Below, piece by piece: positions 10,886-18,474 of a stretch of 64,000 bases of DNA. The notes beneath the pieces were generated by a model. That model was not told the origin of the DNA and searched no databases. It saw only the letters and a program-made list of their open reading frames with translations. Position 1 is the first letter of the stretch. Each line of letters opens with the position of its first letter. The stretch lies in assembly GCA_017438525.1 (NCBI GenBank), contig JAFRVI010000075.1:34144-98143 (forward strand), in the 5' to 3' direction. Position numbers and translations under genes: made by a program. The DNA is from Clostridia bacterium (GTDB lineage: Bacteria > Bacillota > Clostridia > Oscillospirales > RGIG8002).

Positions 10886-11495
10886 AGTCAGATACGAGAA
10901 GACCGGCGACGCGCGTTTCGTTTCCCACCTCGACCTCGTGCGCACCTTCGCCCGCGCCGTCCGCCGCGCCGACCTGAACGTGTATTACACCGAGGGCTAC
11001 AACCCGCATATAAAGATGAACTTCCTGCCGCCGCTTTCGCTCGGTTACGAGAGCCTGTGCGAAGCGTTCGATATGCGTCTGACGGACGAAACGCCATGCC
11101 CGGAGGTCGCCCGGCGGCTCCGCGCCGTCCTGCCGGAGCTGCTGCGCGTTACCGACGCATACGAGCCGGAGACCGACCTTTCCGACGCCGCCTCCGTGCA
11201 GTACTCGCTGCGCTTTGACGCCGACGCGGACAAGGCGGCGGAAACGCTTTCGCGCGGCGGGCTCGTCATCGAGAAGAAGACGAAGCGCGGGCAGATAACC
11301 GTCGACGTACACGACGCGCTGATAAGCGCGAAAAGCGCGGACGGCGCGCTCGAGATAACGCTTCCGATGGGGGAGAGCTGCCTCAATCCGCGCCACGTCG
11401 TCGAGGCGCTGAATACCTACGGCGGCTTTGAGATCGAAGACTTCCGCTGCGTCCGCAGGCAGCTTTTCGCCGCCGACGGCAGCGTATTCAGATAA
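10872..11495 (+). CDS. radical-SAM-associated protein (TIGR03936/DUF2344-like)
   Basis: RVRYEKTGDARFVSHLDLVRTFARAVRRA N-terminus. 14-nt overlap with the radical SAM gene. Confidence 0.75.
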   Translation: MRNVRVRYEKTGDARFVSHLDLVRTFARAVRRADLNVYYTEGYNPHIKMNFLPPLSLGYESLCEAFDMRLTDETPCPEVARRLRAVLPELLRVTDAYEPETDLSDAASVQYSLRFDADADKAAETLSRGGLVIEKKTKRGQITVDVHDALISAKSADGALEITLPMGESCLNPRHVVEALNTYGGFEIEDFRCVRRQLFAADGSVFR

Positions 11496-11541
11496 CATAA
11501 GAAACGCGCCCGACGGGCGCGTTTTCGGCAAGGAGGCAATT

Positions 11542-12366
11542 ATGAAGATAAAATTTCTCGGCACCGCCGCCGCGGAGGCGATACCGGCGCTGTTCTGCAC
11601 CTGCGAGACCTGCCGCGAAGCGCGGAAGGCGGGCGGCCGCGAACTGCGTCTGCGTTCGCAGGCGCTTATCAACGATACGCTGCTCATCGATCTTAACGGC
11701 GACACCGCCGCGAACGCGCAGCGCTTCGGGCTGGATATGACGCGCGTTTTCCATTGTCTGATAACCCACGTCCACAGCGACCACTTCTGCGTGCCGGAGT
11801 TTTTCTACGTCAGCCCCGGCTTTACACACCGAGACGGAATGCCGCCGCTGACCGTGCACGGCAGCGAAGACGTCGCCGAAGCGCTTGAAAAGAGCGTCGC
11901 CGCCGCGAAGGGCGCGCTCGTCTGCCGCTTCGAGCCGCCGTTCACGCCGTTCAACGCGGGCGGCGTGCGCGTGACTGCGCTGAAGGCGAGCCACGGCATC
12001 CCTCATCCGTATATCTACCTGCTCGAGCAGGAGGGCAAGGCAATCCTCTACGCGCACGACACCGGCCCCTTCCCTGAGGAAACCTGGGATTACCTCGGTC
12101 GGTCGAACGTCCGGCTGTCGCTCGTTTCGCTCGACTGCAACGACGGCGACGTTGACGATATCGAATACGACGGACATATGTGCGTCGGGCGCTGCAAAAG
12201 GGTGCGCGACAGACTGAAGTTGCTTGGGATCGCGGACGAAAGCGCCGTTTTCGTGCTAAACCATTTTTCTCACAACGGCGTCCGCACGCTCTACCGCGAT
12301 ATGTCGAAGATCGCCGAACGCGAGGGCTTCATCGCCTCCTACGACGGACTTGAACTGACGGTTTAA
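11542..12366 (+). CDS. MBL-fold metallo-hydrolase (PhnP-like)
   Basis: ITHVHSDH metal motif. The ATG at 11542 follows AAGGAGG. The track start at 11428 is an upstream extension. Confidence 0.75.
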   Translation: MKIKFLGTAAAEAIPALFCTCETCREARKAGGRELRLRSQALINDTLLIDLNGDTAANAQRFGLDMTRVFHCLITHVHSDHFCVPEFFYVSPGFTHRDGMPPLTVHGSEDVAEALEKSVAAAKGALVCRFEPPFTPFNAGGVRVTALKASHGIPHPYIYLLEQEGKAILYAHDTGPFPEETWDYLGRSNVRLSLVSLDCNDGDVDDIEYDGHMCVGRCKRVRDRLKLLGIADESAVFVLNHFSHNGVRTLYRDMSKIAEREGFIASYDGLELTV

Positions 12367-12438
12367 AAATAGAATAGTTAAACAGCCGCCCTCGGGGGCT
12401 CATAAAGAGGATTCTGCTCACGGCTGTTCTCAAGAGTA

Positions 12439-12467
12439 GGACGGACAGAGAATTGCCCGTCCTTTTT
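12439..12467 (+). terminator. intrinsic terminator
   Basis: GGACGG-11 nt-CCGTCC followed by TTTTT. Confidence 0.6.
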
Positions 12468-12592
12468 GATAAAAATTCGCTTTTTACCCAACCTTTTTCT
12501 CCTCTCATTTGTCTAATAGGCAGAGTGCTCGAAAAAACAAAAAGGAGTGATCGACCATTTACAGATCGTACGACGATGAAACGCTCGTTTAT

Positions 12593-15500
12593 ATGACGCT
12601 TGCAGGCGATCAGGACGCGTACGGCGAACTTGTACTGCGCTGGCAGAGCGCGGCGCTTGCGCAGGCGAATTCGGTCCTGCAATCGGTATATCTGTCCGAG
12701 GATGCGGCGCAGGACGCGTTCGTCGCGGCGTGGCTGAAGCTTAACACGCTCTCCGATCCGTCAAAGTTCGGCGCGTGGGTGTGCAAAGCCGCAAAAAACC
12801 GCGCAAAGAACATACTCGTCCGTTACAGCGGCTGGATGGATTTTTCAGCGTACGAAAATACCGCGGCGGACGATACTTTCTCGCCGACGGTTGCACTGAT
12901 AGGCACGAGCGAAAAGGAAGAGCTGCATAACGCGATAAAGTCTTTGCCTGAAAAAGTGAGAACGGTTATAACTCTACACTATTTTGAAGGGCTTTCCGTC
13001 GCAGAAATAGCGGACAAAATGAGGATATCAGTCGGCACGGCGAAATGGCATCTATCCGACGGAAGAAAGAGATTGAGAGGGGAACTTATGGCGACAAACG
13101 AAGATTATAACGACACGCTCACAGAGCGCGTGATGAAGAAGGTCGAAGAGCTGAAATTATGGTCGTCCAAAACGGATAAGACCGGATTTGAGCTCGTGTA
13201 TAAGGACGTTCTGACGGACGTAGAAGACCTGCCGGAGTCGGAGAAAAAGTATCACGCAATGGCGGACGTGCTTCTGCGCGGCTTCTGGTGGCTGCCCGGC
13301 AAAAAGAACGACAGCCTGGTCGTGCGCATCGCGGACGCTGCAGAAAAAGGCCATAACGACGAGGCGACGGCTTTCATATGCTCGAAGGAGGACGCAAAGC
13401 TGTCCGGTGAGGCAAAGATCGAATTCATCCTCGACAAGCAGATACCGCGTCTGACAGGTGAAGATCTGCCAATCGCACTTGGTTCCGAATGGCTGGCACT
13501 TGCCAACGCATATCTTGAAACGGAACAACACGAAAAGGGCTTGCAGGCACTTAAAAAGGCAAGGGAAATACTGCCGAAGAACAGCGTGCAGTACGCGAGC
13601 ATATTTTACGCAGAAGACTTGGTCGAGCTGCGCGATACAAAGTATAAAGAAAAAGACAAATACAAATTCAGAGTATATTCGTCCGGATATGAGATTTCTT
13701 TAAAGAACGGATATCCGTTAAAGACAAATGAACAGTTTTTTAACTATAAAGGTGAATGGACCCCCGCGGTTGGCGGTTGGTATCGTATTTTAGCTAACGC
13801 ATCATGCTGCGACGGGATATTTTTTACTGAGGGCGCAGATGTCGGATACGTTAAAACTGCATCGGATAAAACGACGCTAACGCTTTTAAGTAAAACAGAG
13901 ACCGTAGATACTCCCGCAGGCATATTTGAAGACTGCGAGCTGTGGGAAACGTTACCCGCTGATTCGTACATATCCGAAGTCTACCGCGCGTATTACAAAC
14001 GCGGTGTCGGTATGGTAAAATTCTGCGAGATCATAAACGACGAGGTTGAAACGGTAGTTTTGTCCTCTTACAACGTTAAGAAAAGCGACAGCCTGATGCC
14101 GCTTGATAAAGACAATACGTGGGAATATACGCGGCAGTCGGAATATCCGTCCGTCTATCATGATGTAAAAATCAAAGTCGTTTTCAAATCCGATGAAAAA
14201 GTAACGCTTGCAGTCTTCTCGGAGACGGAACGGTTGTATTACGACGAACACAGCTTTGCCGATATGGCTTATGCGGTACGTTCCGAATATTACGATTTCG
14301 AGGAAAAAATAATAGATGTACGCGATTACATAAAAAAGCTTTCTGCCGCCGCAAAAACAAAACTGCAGAAGGCGCACGCAAAGGTCGCTTCATCCGTTAT
14401 GGACAGACTGATGGACGAAAACGGCATAACCGAAAATGATCAATATGAAAACACCTGGAACTTCTTTGAGTATAAAACTTTCAGCCAAAGAAACGGAAAC
14501 GTGGTATGTCAGGAAAACCGTGATTTCGCTTTTGAATGGAAGTGTGTCAGAGGTACGGTATATGACGACCAGGTGCTTTTCAATTATATCTATGATTTTC
14601 TGTCTGACAATTTCGGCTGCGTCTATTCGGATCAATGGGTCCCGGGCTTCCGTACCGTAAAAGAGCTTTACGATTACAATGACGATTCTGTAAAAACGGA
14701 GCTGATATGTGAAGATGCGGGTAAAGTCAAAGTTGCCTGCGGTGAGTTTGACGACTGCCTGCGTGTAACTATCGATACGACCGGTAAATTGGAATACCAC
14801 GAGTATTACGGCGGCAAAAAGACATATATTTTCGCAAAAGGTGTAGGTATAATCAGATCAGAAAACTATTATGCCGAAAACGCGCTATGCGCCGTATACG
14901 AGCTGACGGAGTACGAAGGGACAGGCGAAGGATATTTTCCGCTTGATGACGGGTTACACCGCCACTATGACCTGATAAACCCGAAAAGAAACTACGTCGG
15001 ATATACAGACTACACGTTTGTAAAAGATAATTACGGCAGGACGGTGGTTTTTTCGGACAAGCGAGGTTCAAGGAAAAAGGCGGAGCTATTGGAATACTAT
15101 AAAACGAAAGATGAGAAAGAAGTCGGAGAGCTTTGGGATAAGCGCGATTTTGACGAGTATTACATCCGTCAGGGACTTGTCAATCTGAAAATACAGATAC
15201 ATGCGTTGTTTGAGGCAAATCCCACAAACTGGTTTGACGCATGTTTACCGGCGGCGCACAATCAATTTTCAATGCGGGTTATTGAGAGCTTCGGAGAGGG
15301 CGGCGTACCGGAAATATGGTACGGAGCGTACGCGAGAAAGAGCCTTATAGCAGCCGCGGTGTTGTTCGCCTGCGGCAAGACCGAAAAAGGCAGACAGTAT
15401 ATGGAAACAGCGTTTACATACTACGAGAAATGGAACGCGATCCCGAAAGTAACAAAGCTGCCCGTCGGCGCGCCGTGGCTGTTCGGAAACGTAACTGCCG

Positions 15501-15685
15501 AAAAAGGAAGCGGGATCCTTACGCTGTCCAACGGCAGCAAGGAAGTGCTTGACATTGTTATTTTCAGAGAAAGACCAATGTCGGAAATCAGTGCAGCGCT
15601 GAACAGCTGGGGATGGTTTGACTCGGTGAGAAAAGAGCCGTTCTTCGCAGAATACATAAAACGGGCTGAAGAATATAAGGATTAA
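12593..15685 (+). CDS. ECF-like sigma-70 factor fused to an ~860-aa C-terminal extension of unknown function
   Basis: Sigma region 2 (AQDAFVAAWLKL...FGAWVCKAAKNRAKN) and region 4 HTH (LSVAEIADKMRISVGTAKWHLSDGRKRL) lie within the first ~170 aa. The rest has no TM segment. The sequence is visibly AT-richer than its flanks. The likely true start is ATT at 12557, 9 nt after AAAGGAG. Confidence 0.7.
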   Translation: MTLAGDQDAYGELVLRWQSAALAQANSVLQSVYLSEDAAQDAFVAAWLKLNTLSDPSKFGAWVCKAAKNRAKNILVRYSGWMDFSAYENTAADDTFSPTVALIGTSEKEELHNAIKSLPEKVRTVITLHYFEGLSVAEIADKMRISVGTAKWHLSDGRKRLRGELMATNEDYNDTLTERVMKKVEELKLWSSKTDKTGFELVYKDVLTDVEDLPESEKKYHAMADVLLRGFWWLPGKKNDSLVVRIADAAEKGHNDEATAFICSKEDAKLSGEAKIEFILDKQIPRLTGEDLPIALGSEWLALANAYLETEQHEKGLQALKKAREILPKNSVQYASIFYAEDLVELRDTKYKEKDKYKFRVYSSGYEISLKNGYPLKTNEQFFNYKGEWTPAVGGWYRILANASCCDGIFFTEGADVGYVKTASDKTTLTLLSKTETVDTPAGIFEDCELWETLPADSYISEVYRAYYKRGVGMVKFCEIINDEVETVVLSSYNVKKSDSLMPLDKDNTWEYTRQSEYPSVYHDVKIKVVFKSDEKVTLAVFSETERLYYDEHSFADMAYAVRSEYYDFEEKIIDVRDYIKKLSAAAKTKLQKAHAKVASSVMDRLMDENGITENDQYENTWNFFEYKTFSQRNGNVVCQENRDFAFEWKCVRGTVYDDQVLFNYIYDFLSDNFGCVYSDQWVPGFRTVKELYDYNDDSVKTELICEDAGKVKVACGEFDDCLRVTIDTTGKLEYHEYYGGKKTYIFAKGVGIIRSENYYAENALCAVYELTEYEGTGEGYFPLDDGLHRHYDLINPKRNYVGYTDYTFVKDNYGRTVVFSDKRGSRKKAELLEYYKTKDEKEVGELWDKRDFDEYYIRQGLVNLKIQIHALFEANPTNWFDACLPAAHNQFSMRVIESFGEGGVPEIWYGAYARKSLIAAAVLFACGKTEKGRQYMETAFTYYEKWNAIPKVTKLPVGAPWLFGNVTAEKGSGILTLSNGSKEVLDIVIFRERPMSEISAALNSWGWFDSVRKEPFFAEYIKRAEEYKD

Positions 15686-15697
15686 AAAGGCGGCGCC

Positions 15698-15832
15698 GCG
15701 GACGAAAGCACAGTTTTCGTGCTCAACCACTTTTCGCATAACGGTGTACATGTGCTCTACCGCGATATGTCTAAGATCGCGGAACGTGAGGGCTTCACAG
15801 CTTCCTACGACGGATTGGAGATCACGGTCTGA
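15698..15832 (+). pseudogene. orphan 3' fragment (44 codons plus stop) of an MBL-hydrolase gene, paralogous to 12232-12366
   Basis: Translates to ADESTVFVLNHFSHNGVHVLYRDMSKIAEREGFTASYDGLEITV*, compared with ADESAVFVLNHFSHNGVRTLYRDMSKIAEREGFIASYDGLELTV* at the end of the intact gene. No start codon or 5' part. Confidence 0.8.
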
Positions 15833-15850
15833 CGGCGCAGATACAACGAA

Positions 15851-15879
15851 AAAACGCACGCCCGCGGGCGTGCGTTTTA
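15851..15879. terminator. bidirectional intrinsic terminator
   Basis: AAAAACGCACGCCC-GCG-GGCGTGCGTTTT, between convergent genes. Confidence 0.7.
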
Positions 15880-15899
15880 TACTGTATTACTGTGTTTGC

Positions 15900-16817
15900 T
15901 TATTTATTCAGCTCTCTTATCTTCGGGTCGCCGTAGAAGCCGAGGATTATCGTGCCGGGGCCGACGGAGGAGCCGATGCCCTGCTCGATATAGCCGAAGT
16001 GGAAGTTTATCTTCTTATCGGGGAAGAAACCCTGTATCTCGCTGGCGACCTGCTTTGCGTCGGCTTCGCAGTCGGCGTGGGCGATGCAGACGTTGTTGTT
16101 CGCGTCGAGGTCGGCGTAGTCGCGGACGAACTCGGCGCTTCTGGTCAGCGACGCTTTCCTGCCTCTGACCTTCTCGACGGCGACGTTGTGGCCGGTCTCG
16201 TCGTAGACGATCATCGGCTTGACGCTCAGCAGCCCGCCGAAGAAGGCGGCGGAGGCACTGACGCGTCCGGCGCGGCGCAGATAGGAAAGATTCTCGACGG
16301 TGCCGGCTTCATTGAAGCGGCTCCTGTTGTCGAGCACCCACTGATGCACGTCGTCGATGCTCATTCCCGCGTCGCGTTTTTTGGCGGCTTCGATGAGCAT
16401 CATCGCCAGCGAATAGCAGCAGTTATAGGAATCGACGCAGTATATCTTCCTGTCGGGGAACTCCGCCCGCAGCTTTTCCCCGGCGACGATACTTTCGGAA
16501 ACTGAGCTGGACAGCGCCTTGCAGCAGGAGATCGAGAGCACGTCGCGCCCCTCTGAGAGCGCCTTGCGGAACGCCTCCTCATAGGCGGCGGACGAGACCT
16601 GCGACGAACGGAAGCGCGCTCCGCTCTTCACTATGTCGTAATACTGCTGCGGCGTGAACTGCCCCCAGTCGCGGTCTGTCAGATATTCGACATCGTCGAT
16701 ATAGATGTGCATCGGCAGGGAAGGCTCGATGCCGTATTCGTTCAGCTGCTCACTGGTCAGATTGCAGCTGGTGTCGGTGAAGATCGCAAATTTTTCCATA
16801 ACTTTTCTCCTATTCAA
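15900..16817 (-). CDS. DegV-family fatty-acid-binding protein
   Basis: FAIFTDTSCNL N-terminus and length typical of DegV. Downstream of a yloV-like gene. Confidence 0.85.
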   Translation of the reverse strand: MNRRKVMEKFAIFTDTSCNLTSEQLNEYGIEPSLPMHIYIDDVEYLTDRDWGQFTPQQYYDIVKSGARFRSSQVSSAAYEEAFRKALSEGRDVLSISCCKALSSSVSESIVAGEKLRAEFPDRKIYCVDSYNCCYSLAMMLIEAAKKRDAGMSIDDVHQWVLDNRSRFNEAGTVENLSYLRRAGRVSASAAFFGGLLSVKPMIVYDETGHNVAVEKVRGRKASLTRSAEFVRDYADLDANNNVCIAHADCEADAKQVASEIQGFFPDKKINFHFGYIEQGIGSSVGPGTIILGFYGDPKIRELNK

Positions 16818-18474
16818 GAATTACTATGAAGTCGTAGACCTCCTGTTTGCCGTCTATTTCGTAAAACTCCTTGCCGGAGTATTGCGAAGCGAAGAGCGCG
16901 CGGACGTTTTCCTTATCCGCGTCGGTGGCGTCGGCGCCGTAAAAAACGGTGGCGATGTCTTTTTCGGCGATGCCGAGGCGGTCGCAAAGGAGCCGCAGCG
17001 CCTCGGTCTTGTCGGGGGAAGAGGAGATGATCTTTTTGTTGGTGAAGCCTATGTAGTCGTTGTTTTTGACCGAAACGTCGTTGTATTCGACGCTGCGTAT
17101 CGCGCGGCAGACCATGCCGGTCAGCGCGTAGTCCATGTTCTCGATAAAGTTCCGCTTTATCGTCTCCGCGTCGCCGGAGCTGTAGTCGAGCATCGAAAGC
17201 CCGGCGTAAGCCTGGCCGAGATTGACCGACGGGATGACGTGTATCGTCGATCTCTCATAAAGCCGGCCCGCCTGCTCGGCGGCCATAAAGATGTTTGAGT
17301 TGTTCGGAAAAACGAAGATGTCGTCGGCGTTGATCGCGTCGAACGCCTCGATGAAGTCCTTTATCGAGGGGTTTTTGCCCTGTCCGCCTTCGATTATGCA
17401 GTCCGCGCCGAGCTCGCGGAAGATCTCGATCACGCCGCTTCCGCTCGTCACGACGCAGGCGGCGAACTTCGCGCGCTGTTTCTGCGCTTTGGGGAGCTCC
17501 GCTGCCTTTTTCAGCTCGTGCTCGTTGTGCTGGAGCATCATATTCTCGATCTTCACTGTGAGGAATTCGCCGAACTGCTGGCAGAACTCCAGCGCCTTCG
17601 ACGGAGTCATCGTGTGCACGTGCACCTTTACGACGGAGTCGTTTTTGAACGCGACGATCGAGTCGCCGATCGTGGAAAGATAGTCGATTATAACGTTTTC
17701 GTCGAACGCGTCGACGTCGCATTTCGCACTCATAAGCCTCAGCAGGAACTCCGTGCAGTAGCCGAACTCGAACTTATCGTCCTTGCCGAAAAGCGATATG
17801 TCCGCGGCGGCGGTCGCCTGCGCCGCGCCTTCGCCGAGCGAAAGCTCGTTGCCCTTGATCGCATCGAAAGCGCCCTCCGCGATGAGATAAAGCCCCGCGC
17901 CGCCGCTGTCGATAACGCCGGCCTCCTTGAGCACGTCCAGCAGCTCTGGAGTGTTGGCGAGGGAGGCGTTCATGCGTTTGATGATGAGATCGGTGAATTC
18001 GCCGAGAGTCGTGTTTTCGTTTATCAGCGGGAAGATATCGTCGACGGATTCCCGTGCGACGGTGAGTATCGTGCCTTCTACGGGGGAAACGACCGTTTCG
18101 TAAGCGCGTTTCGCGCCGTTGATAAAGGCGGCGGCGAGGTCGTTTATCGAGGCGGTCTCCACGCCCTCGAGTCCGGTGCTGATGCCGTAGAATATCTGCG
18201 AGAGGATAACGCCGCTGTTGCCGCGCGCGGAAAGCAGCATGCCGCTTGCGAGCGCACGCGCTTTTTTGCAGACGGAGTTAGCCGGCTCCTTGCGCATTTC
18301 CGCGACGCCGCCGGAGATGGTGCGGAACATATTGTCGCCGGTGTCTCCGTCGGGGATGGGGAAGACGTTGAGGTCGTTTATCTGCTTGATGTTCTGCTGC
18401 AGCTTTGCGGCTCCGTTGGCGGCGAACTTCTCGAGCATCAGCCCGTCAACGAGCTTGAAATCGTAATAATTCAT
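16810..18474 (-). CDS. DAK2-domain protein (YloV-like)
   Basis: DhaL-type N-terminus (NVFPIPDGDTGDNM, SARGNSGVILSQ) with a ~550-aa YloV architecture. Confidence 0.85.
   Translation of the reverse strand: MNYYDFKLVDGLMLEKFAANGAAKLQQNIKQINDLNVFPIPDGDTGDNMFRTISGGVAEMRKEPANSVCKKARALASGMLLSARGNSGVILSQIFYGISTGLEGVETASINDLAAAFINGAKRAYETVVSPVEGTILTVARESVDDIFPLINENTTLGEFTDLIIKRMNASLANTPELLDVLKEAGVIDSGGAGLYLIAEGAFDAIKGNELSLGEGAAQATAAADISLFGKDDKFEFGYCTEFLLRLMSAKCDVDAFDENVIIDYLSTIGDSIVAFKNDSVVKVHVHTMTPSKALEFCQQFGEFLTVKIENMMLQHNEHELKKAAELPKAQKQRAKFAACVVTSGSGVIEIFRELGADCIIEGGQGKNPSIKDFIEAFDAINADDIFVFPNNSNIFMAAEQAGRLYERSTIHVIPSVNLGQAYAGLSMLDYSSGDAETIKRNFIENMDYALTGMVCRAIRSVEYNDVSVKNNDYIGFTNKKIISSSPDKTEALRLLCDRLGIAEKDIATVFYGADATDADKENVRALFASQYSGKEFYEIDGKQEVYDFIVILE

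What the first reader, a model, noticed from the sequence alone, without database searches (positions are those of the whole stretch)
12232..15832. A diverged 135-bp duplication of a gene 3' end brackets an AT-richer 3.3-kb cassette
The last 44 codons plus stop of the MBL-hydrolase gene (12232-12366) recur at 15698-15832 with no indel and the stop codon in the same position (TAA vs TGA). By my count there are 25 mismatches in 135 nt. Most are synonymous third-position changes, and only 5 of 44 residues differ (A/T, R/H, T/V, I/T, L/I). Both copies therefore evolved as functional coding sequence before being brought together, which argues against a decaying local duplication. The second copy has no 5' part. 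Between the copies lies the AT-richer sigma-fusion gene with its own terminators. This is the footprint of an element that inserts into the 3' end of a gene and carries a replacement 3' end, or of a recombination with a diverged homologous locus. No recombinase remains in the cassette.
Basis: seen in the sequence. Interest (0 to 1): 0.6.

Follow-up and report, generated by a model that had tools for sequence, protein, structure and literature searches.

The report
Recombination scar at a cassette hotspot
The repeat is real. It is the leftover tail of a related bacterium's version of the same gene, stranded when foreign DNA was spliced in between two conserved genes at a spot where different strains carry different inserted genes, so it is ordinary genome patchwork and not a new mobile element.

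Summary
In detail: 12232-12366 and 15698-15832 are 135 nt, with no indel, 25 mismatches and 5 of 44 residues changed (dN/dS 0.08). The repeat is slightly larger than reported. Copy B starts about 15686, directly after the sigma-fusion stop codon, and both copies run on into a terminator.

The gap between the convergent MBL and DegV genes is a strain-variable hotspot. It is empty in more distant congeners. Close relatives (MBL at least 90% identical) carry a sigma-fusion gene, a three-gene M23-peptidase set, two XRE-HTH genes, or a 345-nt remnant. A further DegV-adjacent contig shows a possible fifth content. Only the sigma variant has the MBL duplication.

Copy A clusters with conspecific MBL genes (90-96%). 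Copy B is at most 84% identical to anything sampled. It adjoins a DegV-FakA stretch that is similarly diverged from the conspecifics sampled (synonymous divergence 3-4 times that of the left flank). The sigma gene is compositionally foreign (GC3 55% against about 80%), and its nearest homologues sit elsewhere with their own terminator, which is missing here.

Best reading: DNA from a diverged congener was joined illegitimately right after the sigma stop codon and homologously on the DegV/FakA side. This is HFIR-like and happened at a site resembling a minimal mobile element. The e14/icd-type model, in which an element carries a replacement 3' end, predicts the opposite polarity and is not supported. 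This is a new member of a known kind, of modest interest.

The parts
11542..12366 (+). Resident MBL-fold hydrolase gene (274 aa), here called the 'alpha' allele. It is the left conserved flank of the hotspot.
   Evidence: Pfam Lactamase_B_2. It is 97% identical at the nucleotide level to L092 and 93-95% to L098 and L102. The same synteny rSAM-DUF2344-MBL is seen in L089, L092, L095 and L098.
12232..12366 (+). Copy A: the native last 44 codons plus stop of the resident MBL gene.
   Evidence: It is 95.6% identical to L088, 94.1% to L092 and about 90.5% to L102 and L098, but 82% to copy B. Variable sites are shown.
12367..12428 (+). MBL terminator of the L002/L089 type. The arms are at 12381-12388 and 12421-12428, and the loop is expanded by about 30 nt. 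That loop sequence resembles the left inverted-repeat end of the XRE-HTH cassette of L098.
   Evidence: RNA fold. Alignment to the empty sites of L002 and L089 and to L001/L098. L098 inverted repeat.
12430..12469 (+). Second hairpin followed by a T-run (GGACGGA...CCGTCC TTTTT). Its origin is unknown: it may be the left edge of the inserted DNA or an extra terminator for MBL.
   Evidence: Fold. It has no BLAST match in any related locus except the near-identical assemblies L095-L097.
12471..12592 (+). Conserved 5' leader or promoter region that travels with the sigma-fusion gene.
   Evidence: Nucleotide homology of 82% to L081-L084 and about 80% to L085-L087 starts here, although those genes sit in unrelated contexts.
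12593..15685 (+). Cargo: a 1030-aa protein with an N-terminal ECF-type sigma domain (regions 2 and 4) fused to about 850 aa containing TPR and DUF3108-like parts. No transmembrane segment is predicted. It is compositionally foreign.
   Evidence: Pfam. At least 627 homologues, the 120 best listed mostly about 1050 aa. GC3 55% against about 80% in the flanks. Hydropathy maximum 1.1.
15686..15832 (+). Copy B: a stranded 3' fragment (about 49 codons plus stop) of an MBL orthologue from a diverged, unsampled congener, here called 'beta'. It abuts the sigma stop codon and has no 5' part.
   Evidence: At most 84% identical to any sampled MBL. Shares states with L002 and L089. dN/dS 0.08. BLAST homology to L002 and L089 runs continuously from 15687 into DegV.
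15851..15878 (.). Perfect 28-nt palindrome that acts as a bidirectional terminator for the sigma gene with copy B on one strand and for DegV on the other.
   Evidence: Terminator scan, repeat I10, fold z-score -4.5. It occurs once in the window. Its core recurs after a DUF2344 3' fragment inside the L092 cassette.
15900..16799 (-). DegV-family gene, the right conserved flank. Its allele is diverged from all sampled relatives.
   Evidence: Pfam DegV. It is 82-85% identical at the nucleotide level to all relatives, conspecifics included. dS to L092 is 0.40, against 0.12-0.16 for the left-flank genes.
16810..18474 (-). FakA-like (Dak2) gene, also diverged from all relatives. Identity to the sister strain L092 recovers only to the right of about 18.8 kb.
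   Evidence: Pfam. It is 82-86% identical at the nucleotide level, with dS to L092 of 0.53. Sliding identity.

Best explanation
The intergenic gap between the convergent MBL and DegV genes is a recombination hotspot. It resembles a 'minimal mobile element' or genomic islet, where different strains of one rumen Clostridia lineage hold different whole-gene cassettes.

In the window's lineage the cassette is a horizontally acquired sigma-fusion gene from a lower-GC relative. The 135-nt repeat is a scar of one exchange event. Copy A is the resident MBL gene's own end.

Copy B is the end of an orthologous MBL from a diverged congener ('beta'). It arrived as one piece with that congener's terminator, DegV and most of FakA.

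On the right, this piece was resolved by homologous recombination around the FakA/acetyltransferase boundary. On the left, its end, which lay inside the donor's MBL gene at about codon 226, was joined by illegitimate (non-homologous or microhomology) recombination 1-3 nt after the sigma-fusion stop codon. That join deleted the sigma gene's own terminator. The event is therefore of the homology-facilitated illegitimate recombination (HFIR) type.

Shown:
- the hotspot and its alternative contents;
- the empty site;
- the polarity of the two copies;
- purifying selection on both copies;
- the diverged right flank;
- the foreign composition of the cargo and its other genomic homes;
- the junction position and the missing terminator.

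Inferred:
- that the left join was illegitimate and the right one homologous;
- that a single event did this. The order is unresolved. The mirror version gives the same product in two steps: first a beta import, then an MBL-anchored import of the sigma cassette that displaced the old 3' end;
- how the DNA was delivered (transformation, transduction or conjugation), which is unknown.
For: 1. Hotspot. The site is empty, with a 55-62-nt spacer and one terminator, in L088, L089/L090 and L002. The sigma-fusion cassette is in the window and L095-L097. A set of a 417-aa gene, an M23 peptidase and a 239-aa gene is in L092-L094. Two XRE-HTH genes are in L098 and L001/L100. L102 has a 345-nt remnant, and L103 has a further unmatched content next to DegV. 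Two variants occur in one sample, ERZ28653690. Many assemblies break within about 200 nt of the MBL stop.

2. Polarity. Copy A is 90-96% identical to conspecific MBL 3' ends, and copy B is at most 84% identical to anything sampled.

3. History of copy B. Copy B evolved as a gene, with dN/dS 0.079 and dS about 1. Its states are shared with L089 and L002.

4. Right flank. Copy B runs continuously into a diverged right flank. The window's DegV and FakA are 82-86% identical to every relative. dS to L092 is 0.40-0.53, against 0.12-0.16 in rSAM, DUF2344 and MBL. Identity recovers to 95-96% to the right of about 18.8-19.2 kb.

5. Inter-lineage recombination. Homologous recombination between lineages with a breakpoint inside MBL is directly visible in L088. 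Its 5' part is L002-like and its last 300 nt or so are about 96% identical to the window, against 76-85% in the middle of the gene.

6. Cargo. The sigma gene has GC3 of 55% against about 80% in the flanks. Its 81-84% homologues sit after nadE/LexA or after SBP/GDSL in genomes of about 50-52% GC, with their own terminator and without any flank duplication.

7. Junction. The homology shared with L082 ends at 15687, and MBL homology starts at 15686/7.

8. Mobility signatures. No integrase, tRNA gene, terminal inverted repeats or Rfam element is found. No full-length relative was found in the phage, plasmid or viral collections searched.

9. Literature. HFIR and the stranding of 'orphan' 3' ends by such events are described (PMC3240628; PMC5361080).
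Against: - The donor lineage 'beta' was not found. A search with the 48-aa copy B peptide scored only five short candidates, none a close relative, and the full-length MBL search listed nothing copy-B-like. The single metagenome scan gave one locus of the L092 type.
- No strain was found with a 'clean' sigma cassette at this site, that is, with its own terminator and no copy B. The pre-event state is therefore hypothetical.
- The right flank is patchy (75-95% identity to L092 in 200-nt windows) and is diverse among all strains. 'One contiguous beta block' is the simplest reading but not a demonstrated one.
- Microhomology at the junction cannot be assessed without the donor sequence.
- The right junction is covered by only two assemblies, which may derive from the same study.
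- Whether these bacteria take up linear DNA is unknown.
Confidence: 0.55

Rival explanations
1. Campbell-type insertion-duplication. A circular DNA carried the sigma gene plus a beta-type 'MBL 3' end + terminator' segment. It integrated by a single RecA-mediated crossover with the chromosomal MBL 3' end or terminator, which duplicated the homologous segment around the insert. It could leave again by recombination between the repeats.
For: Direct repeats of the homologous segment flanking the insert are the classical product of this route. In E. coli, single crossovers of this type gave duplications of 109-950 bp and far outnumbered true HFIR events (PMC3240628). The unit 'gene tail + terminator' is present on both sides. 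No recombinase is needed, which matches.
Against: - The crossover would have to occur within about 170 nt of only 82% identity.
- The two copies are not reciprocal chimeras. A is alpha-like and B is beta-like over their whole length. The crossover would therefore have to lie in the terminator, where the two sides are of different types.
- This model leaves DegV-FakA native, yet they are as diverged as copy B.
- None of the other cassettes at the site has such a duplication.
Confidence: 0.12
2. One reading: a site-specific integrative element of the e14/phage 21 in icd type. It inserts into the MBL 3' end at a short identical core and carries a replacement 3' end, and has since lost its integrase.
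For: A 13-nt identical stretch (CGCGGACGAAAGC) sits at the 5' edge of both copies. It is similar in size to the 11-bp core of e14 in icd. There, the lysogen and non-lysogen icd alleles also differ mostly by synonymous changes (10 of 12 SNPs synonymous; PMC4759930).
Against: - In that model the copy fused to the gene is element-borne and the stranded copy is native. Here the fused copy A matches conspecifics that lack this insert (90-96%), and the stranded copy B matches none (at most 84%).
- Copy B's homology to MBL extends about 11 nt upstream of the supposed core, in a non-alpha form.
- No integrase is present in the cassette, within about 8 kb on either side in annotated relatives, or in the alternative cassettes.
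- The cargo was not found in the phage, plasmid or viral collections searched.
- Homologues of the cargo in other genomes have no flank duplication.
- Identical runs of 13-19 nt are expected inside 82%-identical coding sequence.
Confidence: 0.05
3. An unrecognised hairpin- or terminator-targeting insertion process works at this site. Cassettes land in or beside the intergenic terminator, and the gene-tail and terminator duplications are its by-product.
For: - The L098 XRE-HTH cassette sits between 43-nt inverted repeats (84% complementary) whose outer 14 nt are the two arms of the split terminator.
- L102 has a 44-nt inverted repeat and a duplicated terminator hairpin.
- Inside its cassette, L092 has a 52-nt, 98% copy of the DUF2344 3' end plus stop, followed by the same palindrome core as behind copy B.
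- The window's MBL terminator has a 30-nt loop insert resembling the L098 left repeat.
Against: - The repeat motifs are not dispersed. ATAAAGCAGGTTTA occurs only at L098-type cassettes, and the palindrome occurs once per locus.
- No candidate enzyme is encoded nearby.
- Intergenic terminators between convergent genes are simply the places where insertions are tolerated.
- The junction of the sigma gene with copy B lies inside a coding sequence, not in a hairpin.
Confidence: 0.1
4. Local tandem duplication, or a truncated second MBL paralogue, that decayed in place. Alternatively, a chimeric metagenome assembly.
For: The repeat is direct and close (3466 nt apart). The source is a MAG.
Against: - dN/dS is 0.08 with dS about 1, so copy B diverged under selection as a gene and not as a relic.
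- Copy B is no closer to copy A than to other lineages.
- No relative has a second MBL at the site.
- The structure is reproduced in another assembly, L095. The copies share no run long enough to cause a k=141 misjoin.
Confidence: 0.03

Closest known systems
Minimal mobile elements (MMEs) of Neisseria. [quoted passage not shown] 2007 and Saunders & Snyder 2002).
   Same: There are two conserved flanking genes (MBL, DegV). Close relatives carry at least four different contents, and more distant congeners have an empty site. No cassette carries a mobility gene. Flank divergence and mosaic flanks point to exchange by homologous recombination.
   Different: The organism is an uncultured rumen Clostridia lineage with unknown competence. 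One variant carries an extra stranded gene tail, which plain two-sided homologous exchange would not leave.
Homology-facilitated illegitimate recombination (HFIR; de Vries & Wackernagel 2002, Prudhomme et al. 2002, Meier & Wackernagel 2003, as cited in PMC5361080; defined in PMC3240628).
   Same: One end of the imported stretch lies in homologous sequence (DegV/FakA/acetyltransferase). The other end is a join between unrelated sequences, the sigma stop codon and MBL codon about 226.
   Different: This is inferred from a natural genome, not observed experimentally. Microhomology at the junction cannot be checked without the donor. The anchor is 15-20% diverged, which would make the event rare.
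C-terminal displacement and 'orphan' 3' ends in Rhs, CDI and T6SS effector-immunity loci (Jackson et al. 2009; Kirchberger et al. 2017, PMC5361080).
   Same: A gene's 3' end is stranded downstream of newly inserted DNA, while an intact gene remains upstream. The published explanation is also HFIR anchored in conserved sequence.
   Different: MBL is not a polymorphic toxin. The two tails encode nearly the same peptide (5 of 44 residues differ), so no functional tip swap is involved. There is one orphan, not an array. The inserted gene is unrelated to the flanking gene.
Prophage e14 (and phage 21) in icd of E. coli. The element integrates inside the 3' end of icd and supplies a replacement 3' end that differs mainly at synonymous sites (PMC4759930).
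   Same: A diverged direct repeat of a gene's 3' end brackets the inserted DNA, with mostly synonymous differences. A short identical stretch lies at the 5' edge of the repeat.
   Different: The polarity is reversed: here the gene-fused copy is the native one. There is no integrase or any phage gene. The right chromosomal flank is diverged too. Other inserts at the same site lack the repeat.
Hitch-hiking of flanking genes next to hypervariable cassettes, such as gnd beside the O-antigen cluster in E. coli. This comparison comes from my own knowledge (Nelson & Selander 1994) and was not checked here.
   Same: Conserved genes beside the variable site (DegV, FakA) show allele divergence approaching between-species levels among strains whose other genes are 94-99% identical.
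   Different: The cargo here is small (1-3 genes) and has no known surface-antigen role. The excess diversity is seen on one side only.

Membership tests
Minimal mobile element / genomic islet exchanged through its flanks | Two conserved genes bracket the site in all strains. | tested here: met
   MBL and DegV bracket the site in every locus that spans it: the window, L088, L089, L090, L092, L095, L098 and L102.
Minimal mobile element / genomic islet exchanged through its flanks | [quoted passage not shown] | tested here: met
   The contents seen are the sigma-fusion gene; a 417-aa gene, M23 peptidase and 239-aa gene; two XRE-HTH genes; a 345-nt remnant; and an empty site.
Minimal mobile element / genomic islet exchanged through its flanks | Cassettes are incorporated by homologous recombination in the flanks and carry no mobility genes of their own. 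| tested here: inconclusive
   No recombinase or transposase domains are found in any cassette. The flanks are mosaic or diverged, which fits the feature. The exchange itself is inferred, and the window variant needs one non-homologous join.
HFIR product | One junction lies within sequence homologous between donor and recipient. | tested here: inconclusive
   Identity to the sister strain L092 rises from 75-90% to 95-96% to the right of about 18.8-19.2 kb. The transition is patchy, so no single breakpoint can be named.
HFIR product | The other junction joins non-homologous sequences, typically at a few bases of microhomology. | tested here: inconclusive
   The junction of the sigma stop with MBL codon about 226 lies at 15686/7 and joins unrelated sequences. 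Microhomology cannot be scored because the donor sequence upstream of the junction is unknown.
Integrase-driven element inserting in a gene 3' end with a replacement end (e14/icd type) | The element encodes a tyrosine or serine recombinase, or lies next to one. | tested here: not met
   The cassette holds only a sigma-fusion ORF. The neighbours within about 8 kb on either side are housekeeping genes in the annotated relatives.
Integrase-driven element inserting in a gene 3' end with a replacement end (e14/icd type) | The gene-fused copy is element-borne, and the stranded copy equals the allele of insert-free strains. | tested here: not met
   Fused copy A is 90-96% identical to strains that lack this insert. 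Stranded copy B is at most 84% identical.
Integrase-driven element inserting in a gene 3' end with a replacement end (e14/icd type) | The same element with the same ends recurs elsewhere or on phage or plasmid DNA. | tested here: not met
   Homologues in L081-L087 and L104 sit in other contexts without flank repeats. The viral, plasmid and phage collections hold no full-length relative.
Transposon / mobile insertion cassette | Terminal inverted repeats and a target-site duplication lie at the ends of the insert. | tested here: not met
   No inverted repeat links the two ends of the window's insert. The 135-nt repeat is 18% diverged, so it is not a target-site duplication. A different cassette at the site (L098) does have 43-nt inverted repeats.
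Integron cassette | An attC-type recombination site at the cassette end and an intI integrase with attI nearby. | tested here: inconclusive
   No integrase-type gene was seen within about 8 kb on either side in annotated relatives. No attC or other RNA or structured family reached threshold in 11000-17000. The hairpins present are ordinary terminators. attC sites were not searched with a dedicated model.

The most novel reading that the evidence does not exclude
The stranded gene tails and split or duplicated terminators at this one site may not be independent accidents. There are four: the MBL tail in the window, the DUF2344 tail plus the same palindrome in L092, the 43-nt inverted repeats that split the terminator around the L098 cassette, and the duplicated hairpin in L102. 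They could be the signature of a recombinase-independent, or trans-acting, cassette-capture process. Such a process would use 'gene 3' end + terminator hairpin' modules as its recombination substrate, a kind of integron-like platform without an integrase.
Probability: 0.08. Interest if true: 0.65.

Novelty: new member of a known kind. Interest (0 to 1): 0.3.

Why it matters
The locus is a clean natural example, in uncultured rumen Clostridia, of how small gene cassettes are swapped between strains without any mobility gene. It also shows how one-sided homologous recombination can strand a piece of a neighbour's gene.

Such scars are useful markers. They record the donor lineage, the direction of an import and its extent. 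They also warn annotators that a short 'pseudogene' next to an island need not mean a lost integrase-driven element.

The biological payoff is modest, because the mechanism class and the islet architecture are already known. The cargo is a member of a large, uncharacterised family of roughly 1050-aa sigma-fusion proteins, and may be the more interesting object.

Tried and rejected
- **Search for the donor lineage 'beta'.** The full-length MBL search returned only alpha-type, L088-type and 76%-identity groups. A search with the 48-aa copy B peptide scored only five short candidates. The one looked up (L105) is a split MBL in an unrelated context, not a stranded tail.
- **Repeat of the upstream gene's tail around sigma-fusion homologues elsewhere.** I looked at the nadE and GDSL contexts and found none.
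- **Cargo on phages, plasmids or viral contigs.** Only the 170-aa sigma domain gives hits.
- **tRNA, Rfam families and terminal inverted repeats at the cassette ends.** Nothing relevant was found.
- **Whether the palindrome behind copy B or the L098 inverted-repeat motif is a dispersed repeat.** Neither is.
- **An early reading I dropped.** I first took GGCGGCGCCG after the sigma stop for a remnant of the sigma terminator. Comparison with L002 and L089 shows it is MBL coding sequence.
- **Another early reading I dropped.** I first thought the MBL terminator after copy A was truncated. Folding shows both arms are present around a 30-nt loop insert.
- **Weak similarity left as a lead.** The similarity of 12399-12470 to the left end of the L001/L098 cassette gives no BLAST hit. 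I kept it only as a lead.

Full report
**1. The observation**

The two segments 12232-12366 and 15698-15832 align without a gap over 135 nt. There are 25 mismatches, 17 of them at third codon positions. Five of 44 residues differ, and the stop codons TAA and TGA are in register. The repeat finder finds the pair independently. The chance probability is about 1e-39.

The whole arrangement recurs at 99.95% identity in a separate assembly (L095). Its left half recurs in two more assemblies, L096 and L097. The longest identical run between the copies is under 20 nt, so an assembly artefact is unlikely.

The coordinates need two refinements.
- Compared with the orthologues L002 and L089, copy B's homology to MBL begins at about 15686, which is 1-3 nt after the stop codon of the 1030-aa ORF. 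Copy B reads AAAGGCGGCGCC where L002 and L089 read GAAGCCGGCGCC, and it encodes GAADE, as they do.
- Both copies are followed by a terminator, so the duplicated unit is 'gene tail + terminator'.

**2. The genes**

From left to right the genes are: a radical-SAM gene, DUF2344 and an MBL-fold hydrolase on the + strand. Next comes a 1030-aa ORF with an ECF-type sigma domain (regions 2 and 4) fused to about 850 aa with TPR and DUF3108-like parts. DegV and a FakA-like gene follow on the - strand.

The sigma-fusion ORF has GC 47.6% and GC3 55%. All the flanking genes have GC3 near 80%.

Two hairpins (12381-12428 and 12430-12469) precede the gene. Nothing follows it until the perfect palindrome at 15851-15878, behind copy B.

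**3. The site in relatives**

One scan of species-representative genomes with the MBL protein gave two close relatives. L002 has the empty site, with the MBL stop, one terminator and DegV in direct succession. Protein searches and exact look-ups added more loci.

- L088 (MBL 89% identical) and L089/L090 (76%) are also empty, with spacers of 55-62 nt and full synteny.
- Among strains whose MBL is at least 90% identical to the window's, the same gap holds four different contents:
  - the sigma-fusion gene (L095-L097);
  - a 417-aa gene, an M23 peptidase and a 239-aa gene (L092-L094);
  - two XRE-type HTH genes (L098, and the truncated L001/L099/L100);
  - a 345-nt non-coding remnant (L102).
- A further DegV-adjacent contig, L103, has yet another unmatched content.
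- None of these cassettes encodes a recombinase-like domain.
- Two variants come from the same sample, and many contigs end within about 200 nt of the MBL stop. Both facts are expected if variants coexist.

[quoted passage not shown] Only the sigma variant carries the MBL tail duplication.

**4. Which copy is native**

Copy A is 95.6% identical to L088, 94.1% to L092 and about 90.5% to L102 and L098. Copy B is at most 84% identical to any of them, and 76-78% to L002 and L089.

Copy B's differences are not decay. dN/dS between A and B is 0.079 (16.5 synonymous and 7.5 non-synonymous differences, dS about 1). Two of its 'odd' protein states have natural counterparts in orthologues: VHV resembles VNV of L089, and GAADE occurs in L002 and L089. 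Copy B was therefore the working end of an MBL gene in a separate congener, which I call 'beta', for nearly all of its divergence.

**5. The right flank**

The window and L092 are 94-99% identical over about 8 kb to the left of the site. They are only 75-92% identical across DegV and FakA, and identity recovers to 95-96% to the right of about 18.8-19.2 kb.

The window's DegV and FakA are 82-86% identical to every relative, including the outgroup L089. Synonymous divergence from L092 is 0.12-0.16 in rSAM, DUF2344 and MBL. It is 0.40-0.53 in DegV, FakA and the acetyltransferase, which is close to outgroup levels.

The simplest reading is that copy B, its terminator, DegV and most of FakA are one stretch of beta origin. 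The profile is patchy and the flank is diverse among all strains, so more than one exchange may be superimposed.

Exchange between such diverged lineages demonstrably happens here. L088's MBL is L002-like in its 5' part (89-95% identical to L002 across 11617-11988). Its last 300 nt or so are about 96% identical to the window, against 76-85% in the middle of the gene.

**6. The cargo**

The sigma-fusion protein belongs to a large family. At least 627 homologues were found, and the 120 best listed are mostly about 1050 aa long and about 40% identical over their full length.

Its nearest relatives (81-84% at the protein level, 82% at the nucleotide level) lie after nadE/LexA (L081-L084, L104). 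A 73% relative lies after an SBP and a GDSL lipase (L085-L087). These genomes have about 50-52% GC, which matches the gene's own composition. In each, the gene has its own terminator and no flank duplication.

Nucleotide homology between these copies and the window runs from 12471, which takes in a conserved 120-nt leader, to 15687. In the window the gene's terminator is missing, and MBL(beta) sequence begins at exactly that point.

No full-length relative is found in viral contigs, plasmids or phages. There is no nearby tRNA gene, Rfam family or terminal inverted repeat.

**7. Mechanism**

The facts fit a one-sided homologous, one-sided illegitimate recombination (HFIR; PMC3240628). A linear piece of beta DNA began inside the donor's MBL gene. 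It was joined non-homologously just after the sigma stop codon and homologously in the FakA/acetyltransferase region. It replaced the sigma terminator and the resident DegV-FakA.

A two-step mirror version gives the same product: first a beta import, then an MBL-anchored import of the sigma cassette that displaces the old tail. That version is the 'C-terminal displacement' or orphan 3' end route proposed for Rhs and T6SS loci (PMC5361080).

I cannot decide between these versions, because neither the beta donor nor a 'clean' sigma cassette was found.

**8. Rivals**

- **e14/icd-type model.** Here an element-borne replacement end is fused to the gene and the native end is stranded. e14 has an 11-bp core and mostly synonymous differences (PMC4759930). 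The model predicts the opposite polarity to what is seen and requires an integrase, so it is not supported.
- **Campbell-type single crossover of a circle.** This would also give flanking direct repeats, and such events outnumbered HFIR in E. coli. It leaves DegV-FakA native, however, and needs a crossover in about 170 nt of 82% identity without producing chimeric copies.
- **Local duplication with decay.** This is excluded by the low dN/dS and by copy B being no closer to A than to other lineages.

**9. A residue that keeps a more novel reading open**

- The L098 cassette lies between 43-nt inverted repeats whose outer 14 nt are the two arms of the split terminator.
- L102 has a duplicated terminator hairpin within a 44-nt inverted repeat.
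- Inside its cassette, L092 has a 52-nt, 98% copy of the DUF2344 tail plus stop. It is followed by the same palindrome core that follows copy B.
- The window's MBL terminator has a 30-nt loop insert that resembles the L098 left repeat.

These may simply be scars of repeated exchanges at the only place where insertions are tolerated. The motifs are not dispersed repeats. A hairpin-associated capture process is nonetheless not excluded.

**10. Verdict**

The feature is a new example of known kinds, an MME-like islet with an HFIR-type scar, and its interest is modest.

Noticed in passing
window 12544-12595: Most members of the sigma-fusion family start about 12 residues earlier, with a conserved (Y)DDETLV motif. 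In the window, YRSYDDETLVY is still encoded in frame just upstream of the called ATG (12593), but with no ATG, GTG or TTG. The only candidate start is ATT at 12557, which lies 9 nt after a GGAG. In L085 a GTG start is in frame, because that sequence has one base fewer. The called start may therefore be wrong, or a non-canonical start may be used.
   Followed up: partly
window 12593-15685: The cargo belongs to a large family of soluble proteins in gut and rumen Clostridia. At least 627 homologues were found, the best-listed mostly about 1050 aa. The proteins have an ECF sigma domain at the N-terminus, then TPR, then a DUF3108-like part, with no predicted membrane segment. The C-terminal extension is far longer than in ECF sigma groups with C-terminal extensions that I know of (that comparison is from my own knowledge). 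The function is unknown.
   Followed up: partly
L092 10403-10498 (also L093 2667-2762): A 52-nt, 98% copy of the 3' end plus stop of the DUF2344 gene sits inside the three-gene cassette. It is followed by a palindromic terminator whose core, GCACGCCCGCGGGCGTGC, is identical to the one behind the window's copy B. The fragment matches the window's DUF2344 allele better than L092's own. This is a second stranded gene tail at the same hotspot.
   Followed up: partly
L098 8833-8875 and 10978-11020; L102 959-1002 and 1196-1239: The two-gene XRE-HTH cassette is bracketed by 43-nt inverted repeats (84% complementary). Their outer 14 nt are the two arms of the MBL/DegV terminator, as if the cassette sat in the hairpin loop. 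L102's 345-nt remnant has a 44-nt inverted repeat and a duplicated terminator hairpin.
   Followed up: partly
L098 7674-8000, L089 7674-8000, L101, L002, L092 (DUF2344-MBL spacer); window 11496-11541: In relatives the DUF2344-MBL spacer is 170-330 nt long and is packed with GC-rich palindromic units. Examples are CCTTCCCCTCGAGGGGAAGG, GGCTCCCCTGTGCAAGGGGAGC and GTCATCCTGAGCGAGCGCGAAGCGCGAGTCGAAGGATC. Some are tandemly repeated, and they look REP- or MITE-like. The window has only 46 nt here, with a simple terminator.
   Followed up: no
L088 17-844, compared with window 11542-12366: L088's MBL gene is a recombinant. About the first 450-500 nt are L002-like (89-95% identical to L002, 76-85% to the window). 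The last 300 nt or so are about 96% identical to the window, and 99-100% in most 75-nt windows. This places a homologous-recombination breakpoint inside MBL at about window 12000-12060.
   Followed up: yes
window 11542-12366 and orthologues: Orthologues of this MBL hydrolase carry weak or faint precomputed hits to PF23023 (Anti-Pycsar Apyc1, a cyclic-nucleotide phosphodiesterase fold). The window protein itself matched only Lactamase_B_2 in the Pfam scan. In more distant relatives (MBL 50% identical or less), the gene is not next to DUF2344 or DegV. Its position here is therefore specific to this genus-level clade.
   Followed up: no
window 12244-12275: Copy A has three substitutions within about 30 nt that are unique to the window lineage: G at 12244, A at 12258 and T at 12270. 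At these positions copy B and all other orthologues agree with each other. The cluster lies just inside the 5' edge of the repeat and is unexplained.
   Followed up: no
window 15683-15700: Copy B is in the same reading frame as the sigma-fusion ORF, separated from it only by the TAA stop (...EEYKD*KGGAADEST...). Chance gives this one time in three, and nothing suggests read-through.
   Followed up: no
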